Assembly: GCA_963693365.1 (NCBI GenBank)
Contig: CAVNZM010000002.1
Location: 6,771,943-6,835,942 of the forward strand
DNA length: 64,000 nt
Direction of reading: 5' to 3'
Source of the DNA: Amoebidium appalachense
Taxonomy: Eukaryota > Protista > Ichthyosporea
Part shown: positions 23,431 through 50,343 of the stretch, piece after piece
Position numbering within the stretch: position 1 is the stretch's first letter
How the letters are laid out: every line of letters starts with the position of its first letter
Notes under the pieces: generated by a model
What the model was told of the DNA's origin: nothing
Seen by the model: the letters and a program-made list of their open reading frames with translations, nothing else
Database searches by the model: none
Position numbers and translations under genes: made by a program

Positions 23431-23982
23431 ACTACAATTGGGGGCGCGGCACCCCGTGAATGGTGACGTCACAGGTGTGACGTCACATTCACGCGGTCCC
23501 GCAGCCCCCAAAATATGGCATAAGTGGATATGAGATGTGTGATATCTGTGTATATCGCGATATGGGATATGAGATATGGGTGGATATATGTACAGGAGCA
23601 CGTGCACACACTGTGTGTGTGTGTAAAACACGTGCAGCGCACGTGATTGTAATTAAATAATTAAAGAGAGAGAGGGCGGAACACGTGTACGCGTACGTGT
23701 ACGCGTACATGTGGTGCGCACACGTACAGGTGCTGCGGATCGAAGGAATGCGAAATGATTCTGAATTCAGGCGAAAACTGACCAATGGAAATAGCCGCCC
23801 AATGGGAATTAGGAGGCGAAAAAGCAAATTTGCCGGAAAACTGACCAATCAGAACCGCAGCCCCCAAAGATATGGCATAAGTGGATGTGAGATGTGTGAT
23901 ATCTGTGTACACACATCGCGATATGGGATATGAGATATGGGTGGATATATGTACAGGAGCACGTGCACACACTGTGTGTGTA
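23431..23982 (+). repeat. Left terminal inverted repeat (552 bp)
   Basis: Reverse complement of 59989-60540, with one substitution seen. It holds an internal direct repeat of ~356-bp period (CGCAGCCCCCAAA-ATATGGCATAAGTGG at ~23500 and ~23856). Confidence 0.93.
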
Positions 23983-26734
23983 CCGGCGATGGTGTCCGCC
24001 GGGTGTGTGTGTCGGGCAACCCTGCCGGCCGGTTCTTCTACAAGTTCAAGTACGCCAGCGTGCGCCGGCTACGTCGGCTGCACACCGCCCAGGAGCAAGG
24101 GGGATACGATGCAGGTGCAGATGCAGGCGCCAACGACGAGGGGGAGGACTGGGGTTGGGGCACGGACACGGGGGAGGGCTCGGATGCCGAGGATGCCGAC
24201 ACCGACCCCCCACCCAACCTTGCCGAGTCGTCAGACGACGAGGGTGACGATGATGATGATGGCATCGACCTCATGCAGATGTCTGAGGGGGAGGGGGAGG
24301 GGGGTGAGGACGGGGGCAAGAAGAAGGACGACACGTGGACACAGCACCTGTGCACCGACTACGACTGCAAGGGGTGCGGGGGTTACATGCCCGGCAACCA
24401 CACGTGCCTCATACGCAGCAAGCGTGACCAGCGACGTGTGCATATGTGCACGCACACGGATGCAGACGGCAAGGAGTGTGACAGGGTGGCATGCTACTCC
24501 AACGAGCAGGGGGAGGGGGAGGAGGGGGAGGGGGAGGGGTCACCTGCACGGCAGAGGGCCAGGGTGGATGGTGCCGACGGCAGGGTGGGTGCACACGTGT
24601 GCAAGCTGCACCTGCCCGACGACGGCAGCAAGGGCCCGCATGGAGGCAGACCCGGCAGCCCATCCGGGACATAGTGCTCGACTTCGAGACCATGCCCGTG
24701 CCTGCACCCGACCACACCGACGACAACCCCCACTTCATACACATTGTCTACCTTGCAGTGGCCACATACGTCGAGCCGGCGGCCAGCCAGCCCTCAGCCC
24801 CCATCATCTTCTGGCCTGAGGCCTCTGCCGACGGCAAGAACGGCTGGGATGTGTTGATGGAAGACCACCACCATGTTATTGACAAGGTGGTGAAGTGGCT
24901 GTTTGACACACCGCCACATGCCGGCGGCCGGGTGTTTTGCCACAACGGTAGTGGTTTCGACTTCCACTTTATGACCAAGAGGGTGGTGGGCAGCCAGGAC
25001 TATGTGTACGTCCCCATCATGGCCAACAGCAAGATCAAGTCCTGCCGTATCCGTCACTACATCAAGAATGCCGGTGCACCGGCACCCCCCGGCCCCGAGC
25101 CCATGCACGTGGACGGCGATGGCCATGGCCATGGTGATGGCCATGGTGATGGCCATGGCGAAGCAGCAGCAGGCACCGGGCACAAGAGGAGGCACGGGGG
25201 GCAGAGGGGGGACGGCAGCCGCACAACGGTGGTGGAGCTGGCGTTCGTGGACACCCTCAACTTCCTCACCATGTCACTGTCGGATGCTGGCAAGGCCATG
25301 GGCTGCCAGGAGACCAAGGGCCACTTCCCCCACCGTGCAGCCACGTTTGCCAACTTCAAGGCCGGCCGCATTGCCTTCCCCGGGCCCGAGGACTTTGGGG
25401 CCCAGGACATGAAGCCCAGGCAGCATACTGCCTTCATGCAGTGGTGGCACGAGGAGCAGGCACGTCTGCACGAGGGGGCACCGGCGGCCACATGCTACGA
25501 CATTGTGCAGCAGTGCGAGGACTACTGCGTCAAGGACGTGGTGCTGCTGCAGCAGGTGGTCAAGGCCTTCATGTCCAAGCTGGTGGAGCTGACGGGCATC
25601 GACCCCTTCACGTGCGTCACCCTTGCTTCCCTCGCCATGCACTTCTGGATCACGCAGGCCATGCCCAAGGACGTGGCCGTGATGCGTGACCAGACCATGG
25701 GCAACGTGAACAGCAGCAAGAAGGAGCAGGAGTACATCGACTACATCACCCACAGCCTGGGGGTGGGGCCAGACGACGCTGCACGGCACGTGGCCACCGG
25801 GTACGGCCCCCACGGCAGGGCCACGGCCGATGCCAAGGCCACCCACGACGACGGCACGTGCACCTACTACTTCTTCCATGGGTGTGTGTTCCATGGGTGC
25901 CCCGACTGCAACAGGCACGAGGATCTGACGATGAGGGTGGTGAAGAGGCCGGCCAGGGAGGCCTACGACAGCACCATGGCCCACGAGCGTTACATCCGTG
26001 CCCAGGGGCACAAGGTGCAGAGCATGTGGGAGTGCAGGTGGGACAGGCTGAGGCAGAGCCCCGAGGTCAAGGCTGCACTTGCAACCCAGGCAGCACGGAG
26101 GGAGGGCACCGGCAGGGTGGCCCCCGTGCCCACGGGCCCCGTGCAGTTCCGTGATGCCTTCTTTGGTGGTCGCACCGAGGTGATCACCCGTCACATCGAG
26201 GTCAAGGAGGAGGACCAGCCGGCGGCCGGGCTCAAGTACGTCGACGTCACCTCCCTCTACCCGTACGTCATGATTGACAAGTACATGCCGGTGGGCAAGT
26301 CACAGTGGTTCACCTGCCTGCCCATCAAGCCGGAGGACCACCCATCGGCCATCGTCACCGACCCCCAGGTGCTCAAGGAGAGGCTCGACAAGACGTGCCG
26401 TATGGCCCCCGGCTCCCCCCAGGCCAGGACCAAGGGGTACTATGGTGTTGCACGTGTGAGGGTGCTGCCCCCCAAGGACCTCTTTATTCCGGTGCTGCCG
26501 GTGCGAATGACGGGTGCCCAGGGGTACGACAAGCTGGGCTTTGTGCTGTGCAGGGCCTGCAGCAGCAAGGAGGAGGCCCGGGCCACCTGCATGGACGAGG
26601 ACGGCAACCCCAGGGTACGTGAGCACACACTGTGCACACACACGGACGAGGAGAGTGTTGGAAGATGGTATCGTTATCCAGTCCGATCGCATGAATCAGA
26701 TCATGATCGGCTGGTGGCCTGCGAGATCTTAACC

Positions 26735-26806
26735 GATCCGTAGCTCAGTTGGTAGAGCACTCGACCGGAGATAGAGGGGTCGCGGGTTCAAATCCCGTCG
26801 GGATCA
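26735..26806 (+). tRNA. tRNA-like sequence in LTR1 (1-nt acceptor-stem deletion; probably not a translational tRNA)
   Basis: Box A TAGCTCAGTTGG, box B GGTTCAAATCC, cloverleaf arms present, followed by TTTTTT. Confidence 0.7.
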
Positions 26807-27102
26807 TTTTTTCTCATCCTCTTCTCGCTGGGGTAAAAGCCAGCACGCCTTTACTGGCGTCATCACAACCATCGGCAGTGGTTAGGTTGTGATCTCAAGG
26901 CTAGCAAGATCGCTAGTCTCTGCACCAGGACAAAATCCAAAATGGTAGCATGAACAGGGGTTCAGTGGGGACTGAGGGGGCAGTCCACCCTAACCTGATT
27001 CTGCGATTCGTCCTGAGTGGGGATGTTGGAAGATGGTATCGTTATCCAGTCCGATCGCATGAATCAGATCATGATCGGCTGGTGGCCTGCGAGATCTTAA
27101 CC

Positions 27103-27175
27103 GATCTCGTAGCTCAGTTGGTAGAGCACTCGACCGGAGATAGAGGGGTCGCGGGTTCAAATCCCGTCGGGATCA
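27103..27175 (+). tRNA. tRNA-like sequence in LTR2 (73 nt, anticodon position GGA, short variable loop)
   Basis: Acceptor GATCTCG/CGGGATC, D arm GCTC/GAGC, anticodon arm CTCGA/TAGAG with loop CCGGAGA, T arm GCGGG-TTCAAAT-CCCGT, discriminator A, then a T6 Pol III terminator. Confidence 0.75.
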
Positions 27176-28813
27176 TTTTTTCTCATCCTCTTCTCGCTGG
27201 GGTAAAAGCCAGCACGCCTTTACTGGCGTCATCACAACCATTGGCAGTGGTTAGGTTGTGATCTCAAGGCTAGCAAGATCGCTAATCTCTGCACCAGGAC
27301 AAAATCCAAAAGAGAGGGCGCTGGTGGGCACGTGGACGACGGAGGAGTTGAAGGTGGCCGTGCGTGACGGGTACACCATACTCGACGTGTACGACGTGGT
27401 GCACTTCAAGAAAGCGGAAGTACGTGCAGACGTTCCTGAAGGTGAAGCTCACCAGCACCACCGTCGACCCGGCCGACATTCCTGCCCTCGTGCACCTGTT
27501 CAAGGAGCACTACGGCGTTACGGTGACCGCCGACGAGTTTGACCCCAACCCGGCCCTGCGTACCATCAGCAAGCTGTTTCTGAACAGCCTCTGGGGCAAG
27601 TTGGTGCAGAGGGCGGGGCTGGACACCATCGAGTTTGTCGACGACGTCGACCGGCTGAGGCTGCTGGTGACCAACCCCAACCTCCTGGTGCTCGACGTCG
27701 AGCCCATCGGCGAGCAGAGGGTGGCCATCAAGTACCGGCCCAAGAAGGAGACGGCCCCACCCCCTCCTATGCCAACATTGCCATTGGCACGTACGTCACT
27801 GCACATGCCCGGCTGCACCTCTACGGGGCCCTCCGGTCCCTGTCCCCCCAGCAGGTGGTGTACATGGACACCGACTCCATCGTGTACCACTACGACAGCA
27901 GGGTGCCCCACCTCCGCCACAACATCGACTCCACCAACGGCGACCTGCTGGGCAACTGGAAGAACGAGACCACCACCCCCATCGTCGAGTTCGTGGGGGT
28001 GGCCCCCAAGACGTATGCCTACCGCACCCAGGACGGCAAGACCGACGTCAAGGTCAAGGGCATCACCCTCTCCCGCCGTGCAGCCGACACCGTCAACATG
28101 CCCAACCTCTGTAGGCTGGTGCACGGCGAGCTGCCGAGTGTGAGCGTCACCAACCACCGGCTGCTCCGTGAACCCGTGCCCGGGGTCCCCCACAACTACC
28201 ACCTGGCCAGCAAGGACCAGCGTAAGACACAGTCGGGTGCCTTCGACAAGAGGGGGGTGTTTGAGGCGGCAGACGGTAGTGTACGCAGCTACCCCATTGG
28301 GTGGGCTGCACCGGAGGGCACGCTGCAGTTTTGATTAGGGGAGGGGGTTAGTTAGAGCATGCGGACCATACGTAGTCTAAGCACCTGAAGTTACATTAGA
28401 GTAAATTTGAAAATTATATGAGGTGTCTGTTAACTTAGCTTTGAAAGATAGAAAAATGGGGTACCATGTGCACGGGCAGGGGGGTCAGAAGAAGAACTTA
28501 AAGAAAAAGAGTGTGTTTTTAGGTATACACCATGTGCACCGTGTGCACGAGGGGCAACAGCCATTAAAATCAGGACTTAATGCAAACACAAACACAAACG
28601 TGTCGTTCAGCAGACCACCACATGCAGGCACAGGTAGAAACAACACCAACACCACCACCGTACATGCATACAAGGGTGGGAGGCTTGCCAGAAAGAGCAG
28701 GCACCAAAACATATAAAAGGCGCACACACATGTACACAAACACTTCACTTTTTGCAACACCCGTAGACACACACACACACACACACACACACACGTAAAA
28801 AATTAAAATTAAA

Positions 28814-29689
28814 ATGGACGAGGACACACTGCTAAGTATGGTGGCCGACACCACAGACCCTGAGAAGCTGCTAGACTTGTGCCCCTTCCTCTATGACATG
28901 TACTGCAACACCACCACCACACAACCAAAACCACAGCCACCGTGTGCATGTTGGTGGGCATCCTGCAAGGAGAGGGAGACGTGCACGGGGGAACACGACG
29001 AATACGAGCACGACGGAGGGGACCAGGAGTACGTGTACGAGGAGGGGGGAGGGAGGGGGGAGGGGGAGGAGGAGGAGGAGGACTGGGTGTACGACGGGAG
29101 GGGGTGGGAGGGGAGTGACGGTGAGGGGAGGAAGACGTACGAGGGATGCACGGCCTTCTGGGACAGAAAGAGGTCTCAGCCGTACAGACACATTAACCAC
29201 TTCAAGCAGCTGCTGCAGTCGGTGCAAGGGCTGAATGCGTCTATGGGGGACATGCAGGAGGGGGTGGTGGCAGCATTCAGGGGCGTGCAACACAGAGAGA
29301 GTGCAGACCAGGCAAGGAGGGTGTTGAGGCAGAACAAGCTCACACGGCACTACGTGCACGTACCTTATATCATGAACAGGCTGTACGGGCACCCCCTCCC
29401 TAGGTTCACGTGCGAGCAGTTGGAGTTGCTGACGGGCATGTTTAAGTTTTCCTTGTCGTGGCACCGCCGGTACAAGGACGAGGCAAGGAAGAACTTTGTG
29501 GGGTACCCCTTCCTACTGGTGAAAATGGTAGGGTTAGTGAGTGGCATGGACGCAGAGGTGGTGGCCAGGCTGGTGCCTGCCGTCAAAAGCAAGGTGACTA
29601 GAGCAAAGTGTGACAGGGTGTGGGTGCAGCTGGAGAGGGACCTCAAGAACTACCACATGCTTACGGAATACAACATGTTTTGCTTGTAG
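28814..29689 (+). CDS. VLTF3-like (poxvirus A2 family) late transcription factor
   Basis: Intact, intronless 291-aa ORF with the family pattern Y-R-x-NHF-x-x-LL, HY.HVP.I...L.G.P.P, MF, RKNF..Y...L.K, VKS......D.VW. TATAAAA lies ~100 bp upstream (28712). Recognised from motif memory, not from a search. Confidence 0.8.
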   Translation: MDEDTLLSMVADTTDPEKLLDLCPFLYDMYCNTTTTQPKPQPPCACWWASCKERETCTGEHDEYEHDGGDQEYVYEEGGGRGEGEEEEEDWVYDGRGWEGSDGEGRKTYEGCTAFWDRKRSQPYRHINHFKQLLQSVQGLNASMGDMQEGVVAAFRGVQHRESADQARRVLRQNKLTRHYVHVPYIMNRLYGHPLPRFTCEQLELLTGMFKFSLSWHRRYKDEARKNFVGYPFLLVKMVGLVSGMDAEVVARLVPAVKSKVTRAKCDRVWVQLERDLKNYHMLTEYNMFCL

Positions 29690-29759
29690 CCTGGTGCTAC
29701 TTGTACCTATAGACTTGGTGGACAAGACTTGTCATCAGCAAACTTGGAAAACCCTCCGG

Positions 29760-30490
29760 AGATGATCCGAGTATATGTTGAAGATATCTAACGCACGAAC
29801 CCATCCTGAACCCATCCCTAGATCCAGTGGTTAATCTGTAGATATCTAATATGCATTAGATATCTATTTGGATATCTACTGCTGGATATCCTAGAGATAT
29901 CTAATGGTTAATGGATAGGCTATCTAGCAGTTTTTAGATATTATCTACCAAAAATTAGATATCCAATGGGATATCTAATGATGGATATCTTCAGATGATC
30001 TAAAGAGAATCTAAAGATATCCATATTGCCAATGTTTTGGCCGCTAACCTATCCAGTAACCTATCCACTTATGGCTCTAACGGATATGTACTGGATATCT
30101 AATGAGTGGACGCGAATGACATCAGACACAGAACACTTATTTAGGACATATATACATGATATCCATTAGATGTGTATATGTGCTCTACCTAGATATGTTC
30201 AAATAACACATCAACAATTGGATGTGTCGTTATAGCATTTGTAAGGCATCTAAGAATATCTAAATGGATATACAATAGATGCACTACTGCTGAATAGGTC
30301 AACACAATATATACAGAAGATATCCAATAGGAGGATCTTAACATGCATAGCATACCCATAACCTATCCAATGGATATGTTATACATATACGATGGTATAT
30401 CATTAAAGTATGCTCAACATATCTAATACAATGCATAATATTACGGAATATCGTAATATACGATTACGAGCTGTCGTAATATCATTATAC
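29760..30490. repeat. Subterminal region dense in GATATC / TGGATA / TATCTA motifs
   Basis: Many short motif copies in both orientations, mirrored at 41700-41960. This is typical of CACTA-type subterminal transposase-binding repeats. Confidence 0.65.
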
Positions 30491-30509
30491 GAAAAGTAAC
30501 CACCACCGT

Positions 30510-30557
<48 letters not shown>

Positions 30558-30999
30558 CCCCCCCTCCCCTCCCCCCCCCCTCCTTCTTACCTGTCTAACT
30601 TTTTCACAATTTGTACACGAGATACCATTAAGACTGTTGTTCCTTTATGTCTCGCTCCACTGGAGCAGAGACCGCACAAGTTGTTCATGTTAAACTGTTG
30701 TTCCTTTATGTCTCGCTCCACTGGAGCAGAGACCGCACAAGTTGTTCATGTTAAAAAATTTCTAAGTCTCACTCCACAGGAGTAGAGACCATTTCACTCT
30801 GTTAGACTCCACAGGAGTCCAGCTTTCACCGAACAAACTAAACAAACCAACAAACCAACAAACAAAACAAAACAAACATCATCACACAAATAAAATACGA
30901 AGTCTAAATCTCACCCCTATCTCCCTATCTCCCCCCTGCAGAGGCCGGGACTACACCAAAAGAGACATAAACTAAGTATTAATTCTTTTTTTTTTTCCT

Positions 31000-31041
<42 letters not shown>

Positions 31042-31098
31042 CTTTCCCTATTCCTCCTCATTCTAATCATCCTCAACCCTCCCACCCACATCGCCTTT

Positions 31099-32525
31099 CT
31101 ACTTTTTAACCCCACCTTCACCCTTCTCATCCCCACTCACTTCCCTCGCACGTTTTCCCCCGCCACTACTAACATCGCCATCCACCACCTCTTTACCTCC
31201 CCTAATCTTGGCCAACTCCTCCCAATACTTGTCATCCCCCCCCGCTTGCGCAACACCCTCCTGCTCATCAGAACCACCCGCTCTATCACGAGACACAGGT
31301 GACCCATGCACAATGTCATCACCACCCACCCCGCTAGACGCCACGCCCTGGGCCTTTTTACCCTTCTTCATGAGGCGCCCGGCACTGGCATCCGACAAGT
31401 CGTCGTCTGACTTGGGCCGCTTCTTGGAGCCAGAGTTCTCCATCTCGTCAGCCGCCATGCCAGTGTCATCAGAAACCTCGCCGGTGTCGTCTTTTGCCGT
31501 GGACTGCTTCGTGGAGGGCTTGTCGTCTCCCTTCTCGTCTTGCTCATCAGCTGACAGGCTGAGGACTGCCTTCTCCCGGACCTTGCAGATCTTTTCCCAG
31601 GTCTTTGCATACTGGTTGGGACAGAAGGAGATTGTGTGAGTGTTTTTAACTTTTCTGGCTAGCCTGAGCATGTATTTACCTGGGAAAAATGCTATCACAA
31701 TGTTACCATACCAAACCTAAAGATGACATGATAGGATGATACTTGCCCATGCTTAGGAGATATCCTAAAACACTACGATGATACGTAACCCATACATACG
31801 ACTTATCAATATCATCATTTCGATATCCATACGTTGTCGTTCGGACGGGAGCTAAAACACAAGGATGGGGGGGGGGGGGGGGGGGGGGGTTTGAATGCAG
31901 AACACGGTACGAAATACGCATACACGATGAGAAGCATGGTGCAGGACACATGCAAAGGCAAACATTCAAGCACGCAACATCAGCCATGTGCACAGTATGC
32001 GTCATAAGCAGAGCCCATCCTCAGGGAGGACGCAAGGGAGGGGGGGGGGGGGGTAGTTGTTTACCTTGCTGATCTCTGATGGCCGAGCACCACCCTCGTA
32101 GTCAGGCATGTCAGCTCCATACTTCACACTGTAGCTGACCACGAAATCTGAGTGGCAGACTTGTGGGCCATTGGATCCCGCAGTCCGCACTCAAATGTGT
32201 GGAGCATGAAGCTGAAGAGCTCGGGCAACGCCTTTTGAAACTCCTGTGTGGGTGTTGGTGTGTGTGTTGCGTGTACGTACACGTAAGCATGTGTGTATGT
32301 GGTGATGAGGAAAGGGGGGATTCTCCATTAGCAGCAAATAAAACCGAATTCGACAATGAAAAATCTGAAATGACTTGAGGAAGTGGGAAGCTGAATGGAT
32401 ACTGGATAACCATGCATGTACCGTTTCTCTGAGTGATAAGGATTGATATCTTGTGTGGTTATGTGTTGGTGATTCGTACGTGGGACAACAGGGGGAGGTG
32501 GGAGGGAGGGAGTGGGAGTGAGTGT

Positions 32526-32556
<31 letters not shown>

Positions 32557-32682
32557 GGGGGGGTCACAGTGCATTAAGAATGAACCAATAAGGAAGAACA
32601 ACAACATTAAACATGAATAAGCATGTTAAAAAAAGCACCATGAGAAGATTTCGTCTTTGATTGGGGTGTGGTGTGTGTGTGT

Positions 32683-32719
<37 letters not shown>

Positions 32720-33560
32720 AATGGGCACAAACGTTTAGTGTCTTGAAGCTGCTGAGGCGGTTCTTGATGTAGGAGCCGTTGATGGGGGACATGCACATAA
32801 TGCGGTGAAGGGCGGGGTTGCCCCATGGGTTGCCCTTCACCGGATCGACGCTGTACATGCGGCCACAGGGATGGTTGTTGCACTCAACTTGAACCTCCAC
32901 CAACCACCCCTCCCACGTCTTCTTGCGGTACCTAACCTGGTCTGCCAACTTGTCGGGGTCGGCGGCATTGACAGGGGCAACCTGGAACATCTGTGTTGGT
33001 GGGCATGGAGGCATTTGACAGTTTTTTGGAAGGGGGGGGGAGGGGGGAGGGGGGGGATGGGAGGGGCTTTTGGTGTGTGTGTGTTTTTTTGTATGTGTGG
33101 GTGGGGAAGTGAGTGAGTGAGTGTGTGTGTGTGTTTGGGGGGGGGGGGGGGGGGGGGGGGGTTAGAATGAATGAATAACACTAAATGCTAACATGTGAAA
33201 CACGCGTACGTTGTGCTGAAAGACAAAAGCACAAACTTATGAAGTCTAGAGAAGCAGAAAATAGCTTGAACGACTGGTGGAGGGGATGATAGCTATAGTG
33301 CTAACAGGAAAAGTAGTGCCCACAGTCGCTGGTTCATGAACGTGAAAAGGCAACGTGCATCTGCAGCCAGCAGAACACACGCACACGCACGCACACACAC
33401 ACACATACACACACACGCACACAGACACAGACACAGACACAGATATAATCACAGGCACGGACACAGACCAGACAGACAAACGCCATATGCACCAAAGCAG
33501 GCAACACAAAACTAACCTTCAAACGGCCTTTCAGCCGTTAGGCGAAGATGCTGCAGCATG
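31099..33560 (-). pseudogene. Multi-exon gene of unknown function inside the CACTA/Plavaka element (probable second ORF)
   Basis: Codon-like segments at ~33560-33517, 32989-32733, ~32243-32065, ~31847-31710 and ~31680-31099 have GT/AG borders and poly-C introns. One in-frame TGA lies near 32192. The C-terminus is acidic/basic and low-complexity. Confidence 0.5.
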
Positions 33561-33589
33561 CAGCATGGTCGAAACCATTCAGCACGGTG

Positions 33590-33730
33590 GCTGCGCGACC
33601 TGCGGAGGGGACCTGTGACCAGGCGACCTGCGGGAAGGGAACTGCGACCAGGCGACCTGCGGGAAGGGACCTGCGACCAGGCGACCTGCGGGAAAGGACC
33701 TGCGGACCTGCGGACCTGCGGGAAGGGGGA
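33590..33730. repeat. Short GC-rich tandem repeat (GCGACCTGCGGGAAGGGAC / GACCTGCG units)
   Basis: Visible reiteration of GACCTGCG and CGACCAGG units just upstream of the minus-strand gene. Confidence 0.8.
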
Positions 33731-34116
33731 AAAGAAATGGAGCAAACAACGTGCGTACAGGCTGAAACGGACAAAAAATTGCAAACCGGATTGGGTTTAG
33801 CCAATCACTATTTGCTATAGACCGGTTTAGTAACCGCCGCGCCTGATTAGGGAAAAGATAAAAATAGATTTCGGCTCGCGCGCGCGCGTGCATCAGCTTG
33901 GTGCCCTTAGCGGTGCCCTTAGTCATAACTATCAGACTATAGTTACGTGTCCTCCACGTGACCCCAGTCTTCCGAGGTGGTGTCATAGGTGGGCGCCAAC
34001 ACCAATAAATGACTGGTGACGGGTGTACAACCAAAGAAACTCAGCAGCACATATAATAACGTTGATGCTATACCCTGCCTAGTTGACGTAATAACTAGTG
34101 CACCATCGCACGCGTG

Positions 34117-34152
<36 letters not shown>

Positions 34153-34284
34153 GGGGGTGTTTTTGCCACGCGGTACCCCTGATATTGTAGGTGTACACTG
34201 CCCCCACAACCCCAACTGTGTGCTGAATATCTCGTGCTAGGAAACCAATAACGCGAAAGTAACACATGCTGCATGATATATGAT

Positions 34285-35547
34285 GTATATGGTACAAAGG
34301 GGGTTTCAATCCAGGCTACAATGTTGTGTTTTTTTCGGGTGACCCTCGTACTCCAGAGGCACACTCACCATCCCCCCCATAAACTTTGTGGTAAATTTCT
34401 CGTGCCAGAAGCTGTTCTGTGGGTAGTTATTGAAAAAACCAATAATGTGCAAGTAACATATGTACATATACTATGCTACAAGGGGGGGTTCTATTCGAGC
34501 TACAACGTTGTGTTTTTTTCGTGTGACCCTCGTACTCCAGGGACACATTCACCATCCCCCCCTAAACTTTGTGGTAAATTTCTCGTGCTAGAGGCTATTC
34601 TGTGGGTAGTTATTGAAAAACCAATAATGTCTAGGTAACATATGTACATATTCTCATAGGCTATGCTACAAGGGGGGTTCTATACGAGCTACAACGTTGT
34701 GTTTTTTTTTGTGTGACCCTCGTACTCCAGGGGCACATTCCCCATCCCCCCCATAAACTGTGTGGTATATTTCTCGTGCTAGAAGCTGTTCTGTGGGTAG
34801 TTATTGAAAAAACCAATAATGTGTAAGCAACACATGTACATATACTATGCTACAAGGGGGGTTCTATTCGAGCTACAACGTTGTGTTTTTTTCGTGTGAC
34901 CCTCGTACTCCAGGGGCACATTTACCATCCCCCCCATAAACTTTGTGGTAAATTTCTCGTGCTAGAGGCTGTTCTGTTGGTAGTTATTGAAAAAACCAAA
35001 AATGTCTACTGAGGTAACACATGGACATATACTATGCTACAAGGGGGGTTCTATACGAGCTACAACGTTGCGTTTTTTTCGTGTGACCCTCGTACTCCAG
35101 GGGCACATTTACCATCCCCCCCATAAACTTTGTGGTAAATTTCTCGTGCTAGAGGCTGTTCTGTGGGTAGTTATTGAAAAACCAATAATGTCTAGGTAAC
35201 ATATGTACATATTCTATGCTACAAGGGGGGTTCTAAACGAGCTACAACGTTGTGTTTTTTTCGTGTGACCCTCGTACTCCAGGGGCACATTCACCATCCC
35301 CCCCATAAACGTTTTGGTAAATTTCTCGTGCTAGAGGCTGTTCTGTGGGTAGTTATTGAAAAAACCAAAATGTCTAGGTAACACATGGACATATACTATG
35401 CTACAAGGGGGTTCTATACGAGCTACAACGTTGTGTTTTTTTCGTGTGACCCTCGTACTCCAGGGGCACATTCACCATCCCCCCTTATAATTTGTGGTGA
35501 ATTTCTCGTGGTAGAAGCTACTCTGTGGGTAATAATTGAAAAAACCC
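34285..35547. repeat. Tandem array A, ~7 copies, 182-190-bp unit
   Basis: TACAAGGGGG anchor at 34293, 34477, 34667, 34851, 35038, 35220, 35402. Confidence 0.93.
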
Positions 35548-35798
35548 GATGCTTATAAGTAACGCATCATGCGGCACAAATTGTCATCATAGCATTATAC
35601 TACCATAGTAGTTGGTCGACAATAACGATATATTGGGAACGTGGACACCATATTGTCAACCAAAAAATAATAACACCATAATATACTACACATACCTAAC
35701 AATGTATTGTGAATGAATAAAATACTTGCTTACGTGCTGGTAACATACGAGAAACAAGGATTCTCTCGCTCTTTTTTTCTTTCTTTTTTGTTTGTTTT

Positions 35799-35889
<91 letters not shown>

Positions 35890-36277
35890 CAGGGGGGGGG
35901 GGGGGGGGGACGTTTTGCAGATATATCGACTAGAGTCCCTCATCAGGGGACACATTCACAGTGCTTTATTAAGATCGGCCTTCAAGGCCAAAAAAGCTCA
36001 ATTTCGACTAAGATTAGATCATAGCATTTTATGAGGCCGGCCAGGCCTTAAATACAAAAAGGAGAAAAAACAATACACAGCTAAACATAGATCTAATATT
36101 AGCTAAATCAATCGACACACTGGTACATTGCCTGGAGTAAACAGCATCAATCCCACTGGTACATGACTGAGTGTGTGCATGTCTGTATGTGTGTGTGTGT
36201 GTGTGTTTGCGTGTGTGTGTGAGTGCATATGTGAGTGTGCATGTGCATGTGCATGTGCATGTGCATGTGTGTGTGTG

Positions 36278-36317
<40 letters not shown>

Positions 36318-36530
36318 GGAGGGAGGGAGGGACGGAGGGAGGGAGGGACGGGGGGAGGGAGGGAGGGATGGTTGGGAGGGAGGGATGGAGGGGGGAGGGA
36401 GGGAGGGACGGAGGGACGGAGGGAGGGAGGGAGGGATGGTTGGGAGGGAGGGAGGGAGGGGGGAGGGAGGGTGGGAGGGAGGGAGAAAAGAGAGAGAGAC
36501 AGTGTGTGTGTGTGCATATCTGTAGGTGTG

Positions 36531-36565
<35 letters not shown>

Positions 36566-36723
36566 GCATATGTGTGTGCATGTGCATGTGTGTGTGTCTG
36601 TGTGTGCATATGTGAGTGTCTGTGTGTGCATATGTGCATGTGTGTGTGTGTGCGTGTGTGTGTGTGTGTATGCGTGTCTGTGTCTGATGTGTGGATGTCT
36701 GTGTATGTTGTGTGTGTGTGCAG

Positions 36724-37143
36724 ATTATTCCCTTTGTCATCCGTGACCTCATCCCCGATTCCCCATTGGCCAACACCAAGGCTTCCAAGGTGTTCCTTCA
36801 TTGGAACAAGTGGTATGATATGGTGTGCAGAGACAAGTACACCGAAGCAGATCTGGATGAAATGACGGATCAGTATCGCCTGTACTCCCCCCCCCCCCCC
36901 TTCCCCCCCTCCCCCTCCCCCCCCCCCTCCCCCCTCCCCTCCCCCCCCCCCCCCCCCAGGCAACCAACTTGCACAACCCCCTTTCATTTCTGGAATTGGT
37001 ACCATTAGACATCCAACAGTCATACTCAAGACCACTAATGGATATATAAGGATGATGTTTAACATATCGTGTACTCAATAGATATGCTCTGTATATACCT
37101 AGAGTATACGATGGATATCCAATGTTTACACATGTTGCCATGC

Positions 37144-37181
<38 letters not shown>

Positions 37182-39814
37182 CCACCACCCCCCACAACAA
37201 CCACCACCACCAACACCTGCACAAACGCCGTGGCAGTAACTAAAATGGTGACAATAGGTTCGCCAAGGCTGCGTACGAATGTTTTCATGACTCTTCCAAC
37301 AACGAACTCAAGACAGCCAAGCTCCATGCAGGCGACCACTACAGCGACGACTTCCGTCTGTTTGGTCCTCTTGTGACAGCTGAGAGCTGGGAGCGGGCCC
37401 ACAAGCACTACTGCAAGATTCCATATCGAATGACCAACAAGAACAGCACCTTCATCAAACAGGTTGGTACTTTTCTTCATGCATGTGGTGTATACACGTC
37501 TGGTATGTGTGTACAGGGTGGGATGAGGGAGAGGGCCGGGGGGGGGAAGGGAGGGGGGCCGGGGGGGGGGGGGGGGGGGGTAGGTGCACGTGTGAAGTGG
37601 TGTGGGGGTCCACACAACCAGGGGGGGCGATCCGTGGGGGGGTTTAAGGTGTGAAAGTTGGTTTTGCGCTACCAACTGTACATGAACAACCACTGCCTGC
37701 AGGTGCCGGGAAAGTGTGGGGATGTTGGGGGTTTGCATGCTACTAGCCTAGTGGGGGGGCAGTCTATGTGCACGTGTGCAGTCGTGTGGGGGTCCACACA
37801 ACCAGGGGGGCCGATCCCTGGGGAGGTTTAAGGTGTGAAAGTTGGTTTTGCGCTACCAACTGTACATGCACAACCACTGCCTGCAGGTGCCGGGAAAGTG
37901 TGGGGATGCTGGGGGTTTGCATGCTACTAGCCTAGTGGGGGGGCAGTCTATGTGCACGTGTGCAGTCGTGTGGGGGTCCACACAACCAGGGGGGCCGATC
38001 CCTGGGGGCGTTTAAGGTGTGAAAGTTAGTTTTGCGCTACCAACTGTACATGCACAACCACAGGCAGTGCCTGCAGGTGCCGGGAAAGTGTGGGAATGCT
38101 GGGGGGTTGCATGCTAGTGGGGGGGCAGTGTATGTGCACGTGTGCAGTGGTGTGGGGGTCCACACAACCAGGGGGGCCGATCCCTGGGGGGGTTAAGGTG
38201 TGAAAGTTGGTTTTGCGCTACCAACTGTACATGCACAACCACTGGCAGTGCCTGCAGGTGCCGGGAAAGTGTGGGGATGTTGGGGGTTTGCATGCTACTA
38301 GCCTAGTGGGGGGGCAGTGTATGTGCACGTGTGCAGTCGTGTGGGGGTCCACACAACCAGGGGGGCCGATCCCTGGGGGGGTTTAAGGTGTGAAAGTTGG
38401 TTTTGCGCTACCAACTGTACTTGCACAACCACTGCCACTGGCAGTGCCTGCAGGTGCCGGGAAAGTGTGGGGATGTTGGGGGTTTGCATGCTACTAGCCT
38501 AGTGGGGGGGCAGTGTATGTGCACGTGTGCAGTGGTGTGAGGGTCCACACAACCAGGGGGGACGATCCCTGGGGGGGTTTGAGGTGTGAAAGTTAGTTTT
38601 GCGCTACCAACTGTACATGCACAACCACTGCCTGCAGGTGCCGGGAAGTGTGGGGATGCTGGGGGGTTGCATGCTAGTGGGGGGGCAGTGTCATGTGCCC
38701 GTGTGCAGTGGTGTGGGGGTCCACACAACCAGGGGGGACGATCTGTGGGGGGGTTTAAGGTGTGAAAGTTCATTTTTCTTCCATCTACTAGTATTTAGGC
38801 CTCACATAATCTTTTTCTTTTTAGGTTGCAATCAAGGTACGTCGATGGGATGCACTAGATCTGCGTAGGGCTGTCATTATTGGGCTGGAGGAGGAGAGCG
38901 CCCCCAGAGCGGTCATTGAGGACGAGATGCCTGACTTGTTATTGGAGGACCTGGTGGATGCGGTGGTGGATGAGGAGGATGCAGGGGTTGCAAACCCTGT
39001 GGTTGCTGAAGATGTGGACCTCAATGACGCTGAGGATGACATTATCATGTCAGGTAAAGCTGCTTTCAGATGCATGGGAAGGGGGGTCCCGTGGGGGTGG
39101 GGGTGGGGGTCCATGAAAATTAAAGCATTTTTTTTCCTCCCTTCAGGCCGACAGAAATTGAGGAAAGACATGATTTCCCTCGGCCAACTCGACAATTTCT
39201 TCAACGTTGCTGGAAACCTCCAGCCACACCCGCTGCTACAAACAGATCGCCATGCTTGCCTCAAACACCTGCCCCTACAGTTGCAACTTAGTTTGTGCAA
39301 AGATACTGCAAACGCCGCACTGAACGTACCCCGCTCCCATCTTCCCTCGCCGTTCTCCTCCAACATCATTCGCTACAACAGCGCATATGTCCGGTTGGTG
39401 GGGATCAATGACAACCACTGGGTACGCATTGTGGCCTGCGACAAATTCTACGGGCCCCGAGACTGATATGATAACATCATCATCAACGCGGGACAGGACG
39501 ACAAGGGGAACAACGTGCATTTTTACGCAAGCGTCCTGCTTATCTTCCAGTTCAAGGGCGAGGATATGACCCCTCAGAACAAAGCATTCGTACGCTACTA
39601 CAACGAACTGAAACAAATGGACCAGGCAACAGGGTGCGCAAAACTACAGTGGGAAACAGTGAGAGTGGGGAATGCAAGGAAACAGAGGTACGATGTCATC
39701 AATGTGGACTCCATACTGGGGATTTTCCACTGCATACCACTGCCTAGGGTGCCCGGAGGGAAGGAAGAGTTTCTAGTGAACCGGTATGCAACTCTTGGCC
39801 GTTCACACCAGTGA
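36724..39814 (+). pseudogene. Plavaka/CACTA-like transposase, C-terminal part (N-terminal part not found)
   Basis: Exons encode [24 protein letters not shown] (36724-), ESWERAHKHYCKIPYRMTNK (~37380-37461), and RYNSAYV..YDNIII..FYASVLLIFQF..AFVRYY..ATGC..YDVINVDSILGIFHCIP..FLVNRY (~39370-39814). There is an in-frame stop at ~39464. Confidence 0.72.
37583..38770. repeat. Tandem array B, ~6.5 copies, 176-196-bp unit, inside a transposase intron
   Basis: GTCCACAC anchor at 37608, 37792, 37976, 38158, 38347, 38543, 38719. The array lies between donor CAG|GTTGGT (~37462) and acceptor TTTTAG (~38824). Confidence 0.93.
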
Positions 39815-40599
39815 CGGGCCTTTGCTCCGGATGACCATTTTTCGAGGCATATATTGTTTGAGTATTCATTGTAGATATGTGTCGGATATGTCCAACATAT
39901 ACGGCAGGGCATAGATAATTTGAGTTTATACTGTAGATATGTGGTGGATATGTACACCATATACTATTTCACGGTACTTTTCCTCTGCATGCCACTGCCT
40001 TGGGTGCCCAGAGGGAAGGAAATTTTTCTAGTGAACCGGTATGCAACTCTTGGCCGTTCACACCGGTGACGGGTCTTTGCTCTGGATGACTATTTTTCGT
40101 GGCATATATTGTTTGAGTATTCATTGTAGATATGTGTTGGATATGTTCAACATATACGGCAGGGCATACATGATTTGAGTATATATTGTAGATATGTGGT
40201 GGATATGTACACCATATAGGTTCGATATAGGATCCATACAGTACAACAATATCTACTTGTAATACACATGCAACAACAACCACTGCTACTCAAACGTAAC
40301 TAGTTCAGCGGCGCTCCACATATTACTAAAGTAGTCTACGTACTCGCCCACGGCTGTGTCACCAGCAAACATGCCAGCGCTAAGAAGCATATGAACACCA
40401 TTATCGTATCCATTTTTTTAGAGCCTTATTTGTACATGTTCTTAGTGTCCTTTCGAATTTTCGCTGCTTAAAGCTTTGCTTCCTCAGGCTGTTGTTTCCA
40501 AGTGTGCAGGGAGTGCACGTGATTATTACTATTAGCCAATCGCACGCAGTGGTTATTTTATGTCTTTTTGCCTTCCAAATTAAGGTTTACGAACGTGAG

Positions 40600-41723
40600 G
40601 ATCAATAGATATCCAATGCGCTTAGAATCTGTTTTTGTATATCTAATCAGGTATCTATCTAGATATCTTATACACCCCCGGCCGGATATCCAGGCGTCCC
40701 ACAAAGTTTTGACTCTCTGGTGCACAATGCTGATATTGAATATATCCATTTAGATATCGACATAGATATATTGGGTATATCGATACGATAGATATACAAT
40801 GCGCTTAGAATTGGTTTTTGTAAATCTAATCAGGTATCTATCTAGCTATCTTAAACACCCCCGGCCGGATGTCCAGGCGTCCCACAAAGTTTTGACTCTC
40901 TTGGGTGCACAATGCTGATATTGAATATATCCATTTAGACATCGACATAGACATATTGGGTATATCGACGCAATAGATATACAATGCGCTTAGAATTGGT
41001 TTTTGTATATCTAATCAGGTATCTATCTAGATATCTTATACACCCCCGGCCGGATGTCCAGGCGTCCCACAAAGTTTTGACTCTTTTGGGTGCACAATGT
41101 TGATATTGAATATATCCATTTAGATATCGACATAGATATATTGGGTATATCGACGCGATCGATATACAATGCGCTTAGAATTGGTTTTTGTATATCTAAT
41201 CAGGCATCTATCTAGATATCTTATACACCCCCGACCGGATGTCCAGGCGTCCCACAAAGTTTTGACTCTTTTGGGTGCACAATGTTGATATTGAATATAT
41301 CCATTTAGATATCGACATAGATATATTGGGTATATCGACGCGATCGATATACAATGCGCTTAGAATTTGTTTTTTGTATATCTAATCGGATATCTAGCTA
41401 GATATCTTATACACCCCCGACCGGATGTCCAGGCGTTCCACAAAGTTTTGACTCTTTTGGGTGCACAATGCTGATACTGAATATATCCATTTAGATATCG
41501 ACATAGATATATTGGGTATATCGACGCGATAGATATACAATTCGCTTAGAATTGGTTTTTGTATATCTAATCGGATATCTAGCTAGATATCTTATACACC
41601 CCCGGTCGGATATTCCGGCGTCCCACAAAGTTTTGACTCTTTTGGGTACACAATGTTGATATTGAAGACATCCATTGAGATATCTACATAGATATCTTGG
41701 GTATATCGAACCGATCGATATCC
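40600..41723. repeat. Tandem array C, ~6 copies, 183-186-bp unit, subterminal
   Basis: AT(G/T)CGCTTAGAAT anchor at 40616, 40799, 40984, 41169, 41354, 41540. Confidence 0.93.
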
Positions 41724-41992
41724 ATGGATCTCTTCGTTGGATATCCATTGGGATGTACCGCTGGTGATCTATTATACATTAGATATCCAATCACCATTGG
41801 ATATCTAACTGGATATCCCGTTCGATACCCATTTAGAATAGATATCTTCAGCATCACCTGTGGATATCTTTGACGGATTTGTTGAAACCCATCCAACGTA
41901 TCCAATGGATATATTCAACCAATCAAACATATCCAGCTGGATATGTTGGATGGGTTTGATGGGTTCGGGATGGCTGTCCAAGTTTGCTGATG

Positions 41993-42505
41993 GTGCACAA
42001 TACATTGGGGGTAGCAGGTGGCGGTAGGGGGTGTGCCAGCACGTACCCACACTACCATCGGCCCACTCCGGTTTAAAACGAACACCACAGGTGCCGTGCG
42101 TATGGGCCGGTTGGCGTTGACACCAGACAACGGCACGGTGTAGGCCAACGGACGTTGCCGAAAGTCCCGTATGGTGGAGACGTCCATGACGTTCAAGTTG
42201 TTGTTCTGTTCCGGAAAGATGAACGGTTTCTTGCGTGTAGGGGGACCGCCAATGTTGAGCTCCATGTTGCTGGTAGTTGCCTTGGTGTTCGTGTGTGTGC
42301 GGGGTTTGGTGATCGTGTTGGGTTTCTGAGTAGCACGAGGCTGTGTAGGGGGAGGGGTGGGGAGGGTTTTCATGCCCTGGCCCGGAGTCTTGACTTTCTT
42401 CTGCGTTGGGGGCGGCGGTTTGACTGCCGTAGGCTTCTTGGCGTCACGTGTCAGGGTGCTTTCATTGTCCGAAAGTACCGGGTAGTCGTCAAATTCGCCC
42501 GCCAT
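41993..42505 (-). pseudogene. Intronless Polinton ORF of unknown function, interrupted near its 3' end by the CACTA/Plavaka insertion
   Basis: ATG in ACCATGG context at 42505 and a P/T/K-rich N-terminus. Joining across the GT TSD gives ...PQCIVH-KSCPPSL* with the stop at 29709-29707, convergent with VLTF3. A minus-strand TATATAAA lies near 42725. Confidence 0.6.
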
Positions 42506-43329
42506 GGTTGAAGAGATGCTTAAATGATTGAAAGATGTGAGATTCTGAAGGATGCGAGTTTCTTGAACTGCGCGGTCGCCAATGTAAACAGTTGGACTAG
42601 TTAGGATAAGGCAGAGTGCAACTGAATCAAAATAAAGACAGAGAACGGGTAGTAAGGCACGCGCGGCCAGGTTACTATTTAATGTGCTCGTTCAGAGTGA
42701 TCCCCCGTACTGGGACGGCTTGTTTATATAGCCCCCAGGTTCCGGATCATCTGGATGGGTGGCATTGATGCCTTCGTGACTTCTGACCAGTCAGAAGTTG
42801 CGATCGTCCTTATGTGCACACAGTGCACCCATAACAGGAAGCCAACTAAATAGGATAACTTTGTGGCAAATGATTGGTCAACACTTAAGCCCGTTTAGGT
42901 TTATACAAATGGGTCTGACTTCCTTATTGGTTCCGTTCGTTTAGCTACAGATGTTGCCTTCGTAGTGGATGAGACTTGCATTCCTATCCTAGCGGTTCTC
43001 GAATTTCTATTTGTTCGTACTGACTGCACGGCCACTGCATGTTGCCGGCGCCGCGGCTCAGTCGTGAGCCGCAGCCCGCGGCTGTCGCGTATGATATTGA
43101 TCTGATCATATGTACGCGGCGCCTCAGTCGCGAGCCGCAGCCCGCGGCTGTCGCGTATAATATTGATCTGATGATATGTACACAATATCTACGTGATCGC
43201 TATGATATGTACAGTATATTCGTAATAGTAAACATGTACGGCGTGTACAGATGTTTACAACGGGCGGGGTGTACCACACTGCATTGGTGTTTTGTTAGAA
43301 GCACTCTTCAAGTTGTCTCAAACCTATGG

Positions 43330-44712
43330 TAGAGATGTGGTTAATGGGCACCTTTCATATGGTTTTTCTCGACTAGAGGTCTCTTGCAGGGTCCATTGCT
43401 TAGCCCCTTTTTGTTTAACCTATTTATAGATGATTTGGCTGTCAAGATTTATGCCGAAAACGATGACCCTATTAATAACTTTCCGCCTGCACTTCTCTAT
43501 GCTGATGATCTGTCCCTCCTTGCCCGTACCCCTAGATGCCTGCAAAGATTGTTCGATGTAGTGTCAGAGTGGTGCAAGGCAAACCTTATGATCCTTAACA
43601 TAGACAAATGTGGTGTTCTTGTACCTGATATAGCCAACAATTTACACACATTTACATTATCATCTAAAAATGTACCTCTAGTTCCAGAATACAAATATCT
43701 CGGTGTTCCGGTTAATTCTGTTGGTGTTATGTTTTCCCATATGGTTGAAAAGAGGGTAGAGCTGGCACGCGGTTAGCTTTCTTCTCGGCTAATATTTTTA
43801 AAGACACACCCCTCCATCCTTCGATTAGAATTACATTTATTCTCACTTTTGTCTTCCCGGCATGTGAATACTAGTATTGTTTACCCCTTCTCGCCGCTTG
43901 GATAAAGAAAGAGAGAACTAGAGCGCTTAAACCCCTGGCAAATTTCCTTGAAGCAGAAGTTGCCTCCTTTCTATCTAACAACTGTTGTAAACCTGGGCCT
44001 GTAACGCTCTCGATATATGGTCTGGTCCCAATAGCTGCTAGAGTATCCCATCTCGCGCTGAAATTCAATAAGCACATAAGCCGCTTAAAGAAGTATTTGC
44101 CCTCCCACCCTCTCTTCTCTATCCACCTATCCCCTCTTTCCTTCCCTCTCTCTCTCCTTCTCCCCCGGGCACAAATACAAATAGACCCCACAAAAGTGTG
44201 TGTGTGACTTGGTACTGCCACTTACTTTTTAGACATGTACATAATCACAAAATAATTACGCAATATAACAAATGGAAAAAGATGCCACACGACACTAGAC
44301 CCGATGAAAGCGTACACCTTGAATAACTAAGCCTTATGTCTCGGTTTATATATAATGACCGCCTTAACCATATTACCAAATATGGCACTCGCAAATGTGT
44401 AACACCTAAATACACATTACCTTCCTGTAGAATAGGTCTTTCTCTAACTGATGGTATTATTGATCACATACCACGCTTTTACTGTACACGTGCTATACAG
44501 TGGAGATCTAACTTAATAAGTATAAGGTGGCATCATTTGCATGCCCAAACAACACACACACACACACACCAGTTTAAACGATCATGTATCGTCAAATGTA
44601 GTTTAATAGACCACATTATACCGCAACACACACACTGTGACACGACACATTCACAACAGACACCCAGAAAGATAGCCTACCTGAAAATTACAACATCCTT
44701 GATTTTATACTA
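43330..44712 (+). mobile_element. 5'-truncated, decayed non-LTR retrotransposon (reverse transcriptase C-terminal part)
   Basis: Motifs RGLLQGPLLSPFLFNLFIDDL, LLYADD, LNIDKC and YKYLGV. Stops and frameshifts follow 43776. A (CA)n tract and an A-rich tract at ~44986-45049 come next. Confidence 0.85.
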
Positions 44713-44784
44713 AACACGCGTAACTACGACCTGTTTATTAGATGTATTGATTGGCTTGAGAAACACGTCATTACAAAACTCTAG

Positions 44785-44953
<169 letters not shown>

Positions 44954-45429
44954 CCAGCTGATACCGAGTGTCCCAGGGCAGCCCGAAAATAAAAAAAAAT
45001 AAAAAAAATAAAAAAATAATAAAATAAAAAAACAAAAAAACAAAAAAAAGAAACGGGGAACCCCAACTCATTGATTTTTCTTAGTCTCTATGGTGTCTCG
45101 TAGAGAAAGTAAACCCTGATATATAATCATCACCAGACATCTATGTACGTGATCATGATATACCGCCAAGGGGATATTCCGAGCAAAAACCCCTCATACC
45201 TGAGACTGGTCTCTCTTTGCCTCGAGTAAACAGCGTAAATCCCCCATACCCATGTCTCTCATAACTGTGACACTGTGTTTTACGTGCCTGCGCATCATGT
45301 GTGGTCCGTACGCCCAACAGTGTAACCCCAACATACACAAGAAATCATACAATCACACACCGGTCCCACCTTCCGTGTGTCTATTTGTCCCTAGGCAACA
45401 TCCCGTATACAGTACGTGCAACCCGTCCT

Positions 45430-45460
<31 letters not shown>

Positions 45461-46505: not shown

Positions 46506-46540
<35 letters not shown>

Positions 46541-46787
46541 GAAGTGGCAGGGGGAGGGGGGAGAGGGGAGGAGAGTTAGAACTTGTTATAGAGTACGAAG
46601 ACAACGTCAGCGGGTGCCCTCCGCGGGGGGGGGGGGGGGGGGGGGGGGGGGGGATATGGGTGCGTGTTGATAAAATCTACCAATGTGCGTCGTGGCTGAA
46701 TACACATCCACCCACCCACCTCCCCACCCACCCTTCTCTCCCCACGCACACACACGCGCGCGCGCGCTCACCTACGCACACGTGCGT

Positions 46788-46847
<60 letters not shown>

Positions 46848-46948: not shown

Positions 46949-47001
<53 letters not shown>

Positions 47002-47495: not shown

Positions 47496-47548
<53 letters not shown>

Positions 47549-50273: not shown

Positions 50274-50343
<70 letters not shown>

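What the first reader, a model, noticed from the sequence alone, without database searches (positions are those of the whole stretch)
26656..27311. Miniature LTR retroelement whose LTRs each carry a tRNA-like Pol III unit
The element has two ~288-bp LTRs, a PBS, a PPT-like tract, a 5-bp TSD and no coding capacity. Each LTR holds a full cloverleaf with box A, box B and an oligo-T terminator. This parallels Cassandra (5S in LTRs) and the Helenus-type tRNA-bearing non-autonomous LTR elements, and may be a new family or host lineage. LTR ends are TG...AA, not TG...CA, in both copies. The terminator suggests a discrete small RNA is made, not just a borrowed promoter.
Basis: partly seen in the sequence, partly recalled or inferred. 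Interest (0 to 1): 0.72.

Follow-up and report, generated by a model that had tools for sequence, protein, structure and literature searches.

The report
tRNA-bearing miniature LTR retrotransposon (Helenus-type)
This is a real, recently inserted 656-base jumping element with no recognisable gene, whose two end repeats each hold a crippled tRNA look-alike that likely serves as its promoter; the kind was described in 2024 (Helenus), so it is a new family of a known kind, with an untested hint that the tRNA loop may pair two RNA copies together.

Summary
Observation confirmed: LTRs of 287 and 288 bp (3 differences), an 81-bp interior, GAGAG target duplication, TG...AA ends, and a tRNA-like unit with boxes A/B and T6 in each LTR. 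It interrupts the polymerase gene of a 37-kb Polinton-like element. Contigs of a matching DNA run show the empty site, other flanks at both LTR ends, and roughly 100-fold more depth than a host stretch, so it is a multi-copy family. It meets Kojima's definition of Helenus and matches no consensus in that paper's supplement on four diagnostic words. It is of the fungal, Copia-linked type (5-bp duplication, TGTTG start, TGGTAGCA primer site), not the animal type. The terminator and the non-CA end are not special: T runs and TA/GA ends are common in known Helenus, other copies carry an interrupted T run, and contigs from spliced-RNA runs cross it. Likely mechanism: Pol III read-through from one tRNA-like unit to the other, copied by a Copia partner (inferred). 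Extra lead: the anticodon loop is self-complementary (CCGG), as in 52 of 59 fungal Helenus read by eye, suggesting a kissing loop. Host unidentified.

The parts
26651..26655 (+). Left target-site duplication GAGAG
26656..26942 (+). 5' LTR, 287 bp, begins TGTTGGA, ends TCCAAAA
26656..26734 (+). Inferred U3 part of the LTR (79 bp before the tRNA-like unit); fold not better than shuffles (z -0.96)
   Evidence: U3 label inferred
26735..26806 (+). tRNA-like unit of 5' LTR (inferred R region): box A 26741-26752, anticodon loop CCGGAGA 26765-26771, box B 26785-26795; lacks one acceptor-stem base
26807..26812 (+). T6 run, Pol III terminator-like; interrupted by a C in many other copies
26813..26942 (+). 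Inferred U5, 130 bp, four predicted hairpins (about 26827-26844, 26845-26860, 26862-26893, 26898-26919), z -4.35; no ribozyme match
26943..26950 (+). Primer-binding site TGGTAGCA directly abutting the LTR; same start as 7 fungal Helenus interiors; likely initiator-Met tRNA 3' end
   Evidence: primer identity inferred
26943..27023 (+). Interior, 81 bp, non-coding
27015..27023 (+). Polypurine-tract-like GAGTGGGGA abutting the 3' LTR
27024..27311 (+). 3' LTR, 288 bp
27103..27175 (+). tRNA-like unit of 3' LTR: box A 27110-27121, anticodon loop 27134-27140, box B 27154-27164; T6 at 27176-27181
27312..27316 (+). Right target-site duplication GAGAG
24482..28334 (+). Target: DNA polymerase B gene (PF03175) interrupted by the element and broken by further frame changes near 27415 and 27760
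23431..60540 (.). Enclosing Polinton-like element: 552-bp terminal inverted repeats (23431-23982, 59989-60540), CTTGC on both sides, VLTF3-like gene at 28799-29689

Best explanation
[quoted passage not shown] Shown: two near-identical LTRs, 5-bp target duplication, empty site in other copies of the target, other flanks at both LTR ends, boxes A and B, a tRNA body unfit for translation, no self-priming. Inferred: Pol III starts at the 5' tRNA-like unit; some transcripts stop at the first T run (about 78 nt), others read through and stop at the second (about 447 nt), so that the tRNA-like unit is the R repeat at both ends, as reported for the 5S unit of Cassandra; the long RNA is packaged by an autonomous Copia-type element, primed at TGGTAGCA by the 3' end of initiator tRNA-Met, second strand primed at the purine tract, and integrated with a 5-bp duplication by an integrase that tolerates the AA end. 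Speculative add-on: the self-complementary CCGG anticodon loop pairs two R copies (dimer or 5'-3' bridge).
For: Anatomy. Mobility: in DNA run X15 two contigs join 26650 to 27312, skipping 661 bases = element plus one duplication (depth 1902; shorter side only 21 letters); unrelated sequence follows the LTR end at 26942 and 26944 in X15 and precedes the LTR start at 27024 in X13. Abundance: X15 depth 36.8 on a host stretch against 5127 at an interior site and 9127 at an LTR site, ratios about 139 and 248; rough, the tool warns that contig depth is no copy number, and X15 may be the window's own source. 19 of 24 listed runs hold half or more of the words. RNA: X3 and X12 are spliced (contigs jump from exon end 17136 to the next exon) and each holds a 400-nt contig spanning interior, U3, tRNA-like unit and T run. 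Class: Kojima 2024 defines Helenus as TRIMs under 1000 bp with tRNA-derived LTR sequence, TRGCY/YGG and GGTTC boxes; fungal ones have 5-bp duplications and are linked to Copia. 7 fungal interiors start TGGTAGCA. Non-TG..CA ends are mostly Copia in plants.
Against: No Pol III transcript end, strand or level was observed: all runs laid were contigs. Element sequence in RNA runs could be Pol II read-through from copies in genes, or DNA carry-over of a 100-fold repeat. T6 in this copy would be a strong terminator, so this copy may make mostly short RNA. No autonomous partner and no host tRNA-iMet could be looked at (no genome). The PBS match can be claimed for 8 bases only; position 16 (26958) varies between copies. 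No second insertion was seen with both flanks, so the 5-bp duplication length rests on this copy and its empty site. Host unknown, so the Copia link rests on resemblance to fungal families.
Confidence: 0.8

Rival explanations
1. Ordinary Pol II-driven TRIM whose LTR carries a passenger tRNA/SINE head; the boxes are a leftover and the genomic RNA is made by Pol II.
For: T6 directly after the unit could stop Pol III before the PBS. Element sequence appears in spliced-RNA runs. Kojima states that Pol III use by Helenus is unvalidated.
Against: No TATA or AATAAA/ATTAAA in the element; boxes A and B are perfect while decoding features have decayed; the same box conservation holds across Helenus.
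Confidence: 0.12
2. The LTR mainly produces a discrete, about 78-nt tRNA-like small RNA with a function of its own, for instance a decoy or a working tRNA-Ser.
For: Full-length cloverleaf, 57.4 bits in Rfam, T6 right behind it, some hundreds of LTR copies.
Against: C33 instead of U33, G.A mismatch in the anticodon stem, Ser anticodon without long variable arm; T run interrupted in about half of the X15 depth at 27176 and in X3, X13; T runs are usual in Helenus. A short by-product RNA is expected under the best explanation as well.
Confidence: 0.06
3. Tandem duplication of a tRNA gene or SINE, or an assembly artefact.
For: Only one copy in the window.
Against: Exact 5-bp duplication, empty site, PBS and purine tract at the LTR junctions, other flanks at the exact LTR ends, same unit in other runs; GC 52% against 64-65% in the flanks.
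Confidence: 0.02

Closest known systems
Fungal Helenus TRIMs (TRIMp3; Kojima 2024, PMC10886601), e.g. Helenus-1_AmAr, -1_CCin, -10_CroRib, -3_PTrit
   Same: Under 1 kb, two LTRs with a tRNA-like unit and boxes A/B, T run behind it, TGTTG start, interior starting TGGTAGCA, G-rich purine tract, 5-bp duplication, some non-CA ends, palindromic anticodon loop (CCGG in Helenus-1_CroRib).
   Different: No shared family sequence on four diagnostic words; AA end not seen in the four data parts read; longer LTR with a 130-nt four-hairpin stretch behind the T run; host is an intron-rich, microsatellite-rich eukaryote with Polinton-like elements, not identified.
Bivalve Helenus (Helenus-1_SaGl, Helenus-2C_CGi)
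   Same: Very similar tRNA-like core: the 17-base box A/D-arm word occurs 4 times in the supplement, and Helenus-1_SaGl has the same CCGGAG loop start.
   Different: Animal Helenus have 4-bp duplications, other PBS types, short LTRs (about 120-190 bp) and a Gypsy link. The core likeness may reflect generic tRNA consensus.
Cassandra (plant TRIM with 5S in the LTRs) and Ajax
   Same: Pol III promoter and terminator in each LTR; transcript from the 5' unit to the 3' unit (as summarised in PMC10886601; PMC7215508 passages).
   Different: 5S-derived, not tRNA-derived; plants or nemerteans.
Retrozymes / ribozyme-bearing non-autonomous LTR elements
   Same: Non-coding, LTRs of about 300 bp with a strongly folded part.
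   Different: No hammerhead, twister or other Rfam ribozyme match.

Membership tests
Helenus (TRIMp3) | TRIM shorter than 1000 bp with two LTRs | tested here: met
   656 bp; LTRs 287/288 bp, 98.96% identical
Helenus (TRIMp3) | tRNA-derived sequence in the LTRs with TRGCY, YGG (box A) and GGTTC (box B) | tested here: met
   Rfam tRNA 46.4 and 57.4 bits; boxes at 26741/26785 and 27110/27154
Helenus (TRIMp3) | PBS after the 5' LTR and PPT before the 3' LTR | tested here: met
   TGGTAGCA at 26943, same start as 7 fungal families; GAGTGGGGA at 27015. Match to the host's own tRNA not testable
Helenus (TRIMp3) | 4- or 5-bp target-site duplication | tested here: met
   GAGAG both sides; empty site skipping 661 bases. 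One site only
Helenus (TRIMp3) | No retrotransposon protein encoded | tested here: met
   Longest ATG frame 103 codons, no Pfam match
Helenus (TRIMp3) | tRNA-like unit not a working tRNA and not the primer | tested here: met
   C33, stem mismatch, no long variable arm; longest complement to the PBS within the element is 5 bases. Function judged from sequence only
Helenus (TRIMp3) | Interspersed multi-copy family | tested here: met
   Other flanks at 26942, 26944, 27024; depth about 140-250 times a host stretch in X15; rough
Helenus (TRIMp3) | Transcribed by RNA polymerase III | not testable with these tools
   Only contigs were available; unvalidated for Helenus in the paper as well
Helenus, fungal/Copia-dependent type | Autonomous Copia partner sharing the PBS | not testable with these tools
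   No genome held
Helenus, animal/Gypsy-dependent type | 4-bp target-site duplication | tested here: not met
   5 bp here; animal rows of Table S1 show 4 or n.d.
A catalogued Helenus family | Sequence identity to a consensus in Data S1 | tested here: not met
   LTR start, LTR end and 10-base PBS words: 0 hits each; T-arm word 1 hit in an otherwise unlike family. Word search only, line breaks can hide a word; Repbase and Dfam not available
Cassandra / Ajax | 5S rRNA-derived sequence in the LTR | tested here: not met
   Rfam finds only tRNA
Retrozyme | Self-cleaving ribozyme in the LTR | tested here: not met
   No Rfam ribozyme at E<=10 on 26807-27102; five crude core patterns absent on both strands

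The most novel reading that the evidence does not exclude
The tRNA-like unit is more than a promoter: its anticodon loop has been turned into a self-complementary kissing loop (CCGG here; CTAG, CATG or CCGG in 52 of 59 fungal Helenus), which dimerises the element's RNA or bridges its two R ends for packaging and strand transfer by the Copia partner. This would be a shared, undescribed mechanism of Copia-dependent Helenus, and this family would extend it to a host lineage outside the fungi, animals and plants listed so far.
Probability: 0.2. Interest if true: 0.65.

Novelty: new member of a known kind. Interest (0 to 1): 0.36.

Why it matters
As a class it is known since 2024 and earlier notes of this scan record several more examples. 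This family is a clean, young, apparently transcribed example with an empty site, a tolerated AA end and a natural terminator polymorphism (T6 against an interrupted run), which makes the unvalidated Pol III read-through model directly testable. Its hundreds of LTRs will be mis-annotated as tRNA-Ser(GGA) genes. If the palindromic anticodon loop is a kissing loop, it would explain why these elements keep a whole cloverleaf and not just boxes A and B.

Tried and rejected
No genome held, so no direct copy count, partner search or tRNA match. Exact patterns found nothing in viral contigs or metagenome contigs. Earlier notes by place and sequence: none; by words for a kissing loop or a Polinton target: none. 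Ribozyme: none. Self-priming: rejected. LTR ending at CA three bases earlier: rejected, the duplication and other flanks put the end at AA. A 16-base PBS: not kept, position 16 varies. A long-hairpin alternative for the first two U5 hairpins was not found within 7 kcal/mol of the optimum. Host identification failed: two host frames gave no homologue, the atlas was not available, polymerase relatives were 23-33% identical and nearly all unnamed; polymerase B with VLTF3 recalls insertions described in an ichthyosporean protist (PMC11244446, passages), but no capsid or methyltransferase gene was found here, so it stays a lead. Lack of cover on introns and on the polymerase gene in RNA runs X12 and X3 would argue against DNA carry-over, but holes in contig data prove nothing, so it is not counted. 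The original Cassandra paper was not held. Animal Helenus do not keep the palindrome well (13 of 56 strict, 21 of 56 lenient, chance 0.23), which speaks against a universal kissing loop.
Full report
Observation. The element is real and at the stated place. The 5' LTR is 26656-26942 (287 bp), the interior 26943-27023 (81 bp), the 3' LTR 27024-27311 (288 bp); they differ by two substitutions and one 1-base gap. GAGAG flanks both ends. Each LTR holds a tRNA-like unit (ARAGORN; Rfam 46.4 and 57.4 bits) with box A, box B and a T6 run. The unit is unlikely to decode: loop CCGGAGA with C at position 33, a G.A mismatch in the anticodon stem, a Ser anticodon with a 5-base variable loop (the tRNA rules are from my own knowledge). 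The ends TGTTGGA...TCCAAAA are a terminal inverted repeat with one change from CA to AA. A 103-codon frame crosses the 3' half but matches nothing in Pfam.

Surroundings. The element interrupts a DNA polymerase B gene (PF03175, E 1e-24); relatives align up to 26665 and again from 27306, with further frame changes near 27415 and 27760 (6 of 35 relatives used). The gene lies in a 37-kb element with 552-bp terminal inverted repeats, CTTGC on both sides and a VLTF3-like gene, that is Polinton-like. The host genes nearby (a casein-kinase-II-like kinase, an ATP-grasp gene) have short exons and introns full of simple repeats. The host was not identified.

Mobility and copy number. No genome is held, so I used public runs. 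19 of 24 listed runs, under four organism codes, hold half or more of the element's words. Run X15 is DNA and identical to the window over a 1.5-kb host stretch at depth 36.8; it may be the window's own source and is not independent. In X15 two contigs join 26650 to 27312, skipping 661 bases, the element plus one duplication: the empty site, in other copies of the Polinton-like repeat (depth 1902; shorter side 21 letters). Unrelated sequence follows the LTR end at 26942 and 26944 in X15 and precedes the LTR start at 27024 in X13, so other insertions share the TG and AA ends. Depth at an interior site (5127) and an LTR site (9127) is about 139 and 248 times the host stretch; the tool warns that summed contig depth is no copy number, so I read this only as an order of 100.

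Transcription. X3, X12 and X19 are spliced: their contigs leave the exon at 17136 for the next exon. X3 and X12 each hold a 400-nt contig covering interior, purine tract, U3, tRNA-like unit and T run. Contigs give no strand, ends or level, and DNA carry-over or read-through from host genes is possible, so this is a hint only. In X3 and X13, and in about half of the X15 depth at 27176, the T run is interrupted by a C. The T6 of this copy is one variant.

Mechanism. Shown: structure, duplication, empty site, multiple flanks, no self-priming (longest complement to the PBS 5 bases), no Pol II signals by simple patterns. Inferred: Pol III starts at the 5' unit, partly stops at the first T run (78 nt) and partly reads on to the second (447 nt), so the tRNA-like unit is R, the 79 bases before it U3 and the 130 bases behind it U5. 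This copies the Cassandra scheme as Kojima summarises it. U5 folds into four hairpins (z -4.35 against 300 shuffles), a plausible packaging signal; it is no known ribozyme. The 5-bp duplication, TGTTG start, PBS abutting the LTR and non-canonical end point to a Copia partner; none could be sought.

Comparison with what is known. Kojima 2024 (PMC10886601; whole main text read; supplement parts 1, 4, 5, 7, 11 of 11 read and two word searches) defines Helenus as TRIMs with tRNA-derived LTR sequence. Every testable feature is met. It is not an animal-type Helenus (4-bp duplications) and resembles the fungal type: 7 fungal interiors start with TGGTAGCA. Words for the LTR start, LTR end and 10-base PBS have 0 hits in the supplement, so it is not one of those families as far as a word search shows; Repbase and Dfam were not available. 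Non-canonical ends are described for plant Copia and TRIMs (PMC5659011, abstract; bioRxiv 137141, passages). A search for Helenus or TRIMp3 from 2024 on listed 20 of 21 papers and none was a new survey by title; one meeting report only mentions the class (PMC12859917, passages). Earlier notes of this scan hold 35 findings with these words, 8 shown, among them several fungal Helenus and one diatom case; they are unchecked.

A lead that the comparison gave. Positions 32-35 of the loop here read CCGG, self-complementary. Reading the published LTRs by eye, a 4-base palindrome lies in the anticodon loop in 52 of 59 fungal LTRs (25 of 26 in part 1, 24 of 30 in part 4, 3 of 3 in part 5; parts 2 and 3 not read; a few loops are irregular or shifted by one base) but in only 21 of 56 animal LTRs (13 at exactly 32-35; parts 5 and 7; parts 6, 8, 9 not read). 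Chance for a random loop is 0.23. CTAG can be inherited from a normal tRNA with an AGN anticodon, but CATG and CCGG need the invariant U33 to change together with position 34, and neighbours cannot pair within a loop; three of the seven fungal exceptions are CTGG, which can still self-pair by G.U. This suggests a kissing loop between two R copies. Against it: families are related, so the counts are not independent; CCGG can arise from CTAG by two transitions; CTAG and CATG duplexes are weak (-1.4 and -1.2 kcal/mol, CCGG -4.9); animals do not keep it. The Helenus paper has no occurrence of palindrome, dimer or kissing; one library search for the idea gave one unrelated review and the scan's notes none. 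That is a thin search, not proof of absence.

Verdict. A real, young, multi-copy Helenus-type TRIM: new family of a known kind, possibly in a new host lineage, inserted in a Polinton-like polymerase gene. Interest 0.36; the kissing-loop reading has about a 20% chance and would deserve about 0.65.

Noticed in passing
window 23431-60540: 37-kb Polinton-like element with 552-bp terminal inverted repeats starting ACTAC, a 5-bp CTTGC duplication, DNA polymerase B and VLTF3-like genes; no capsid, ATPase or integrase was found among the frames scanned. Multi-copy in run X15 (empty-site depth about 50 times the host stretch).
   Followed up: partly
window 57544-59400 (-) and 23934-24674 (+): A 619-codon frame reading inward from the right inverted repeat ends in Cys/His motifs that recall (from memory) the N-terminal part of Polinton polymerases, while the catalytic part reads inward from the left repeat: possibly a polymerase split between the two ends. 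No Pfam match; untested.
   Followed up: no
window 8900-16000 (-): Divergent casein kinase II alpha-like gene in short exons, spliced in runs X12 and X19, head to head with an ATP-grasp gene (about 16980-22800, +) that is spliced in X3, X12, X19.
   Followed up: partly
window 34242-35546, 37569-38776, 40603-41724: Three different tandem arrays with units of about 185-195 bp inside the Polinton-like element.
   Followed up: no
window 43345-44204 (+): Reverse transcriptase fragment (RVT_1, E 9e-13), probably a non-LTR element nested in the Polinton-like element.
   Followed up: no
window 38825-39811 (+): Frames that recall (from memory) the tail of Plavaka/CMC-type transposon proteins; no clear Pfam match.
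   Followed up: no
window 26921-26950: The cyclic contig of RNA run X12 is cut exactly after base 8 of the PBS, which would fit a branch into tRNA-derived or partner sequence, but may be an arbitrary cut.
   Followed up: no
window 26827-26860: The loops of the first two U5 hairpins are complementary to each other over 5-6 bases; meaning unknown.
   Followed up: partly
window 60671-61032: Short tandem repeat of about 115 bp right outside the right inverted repeat.
   Followed up: no
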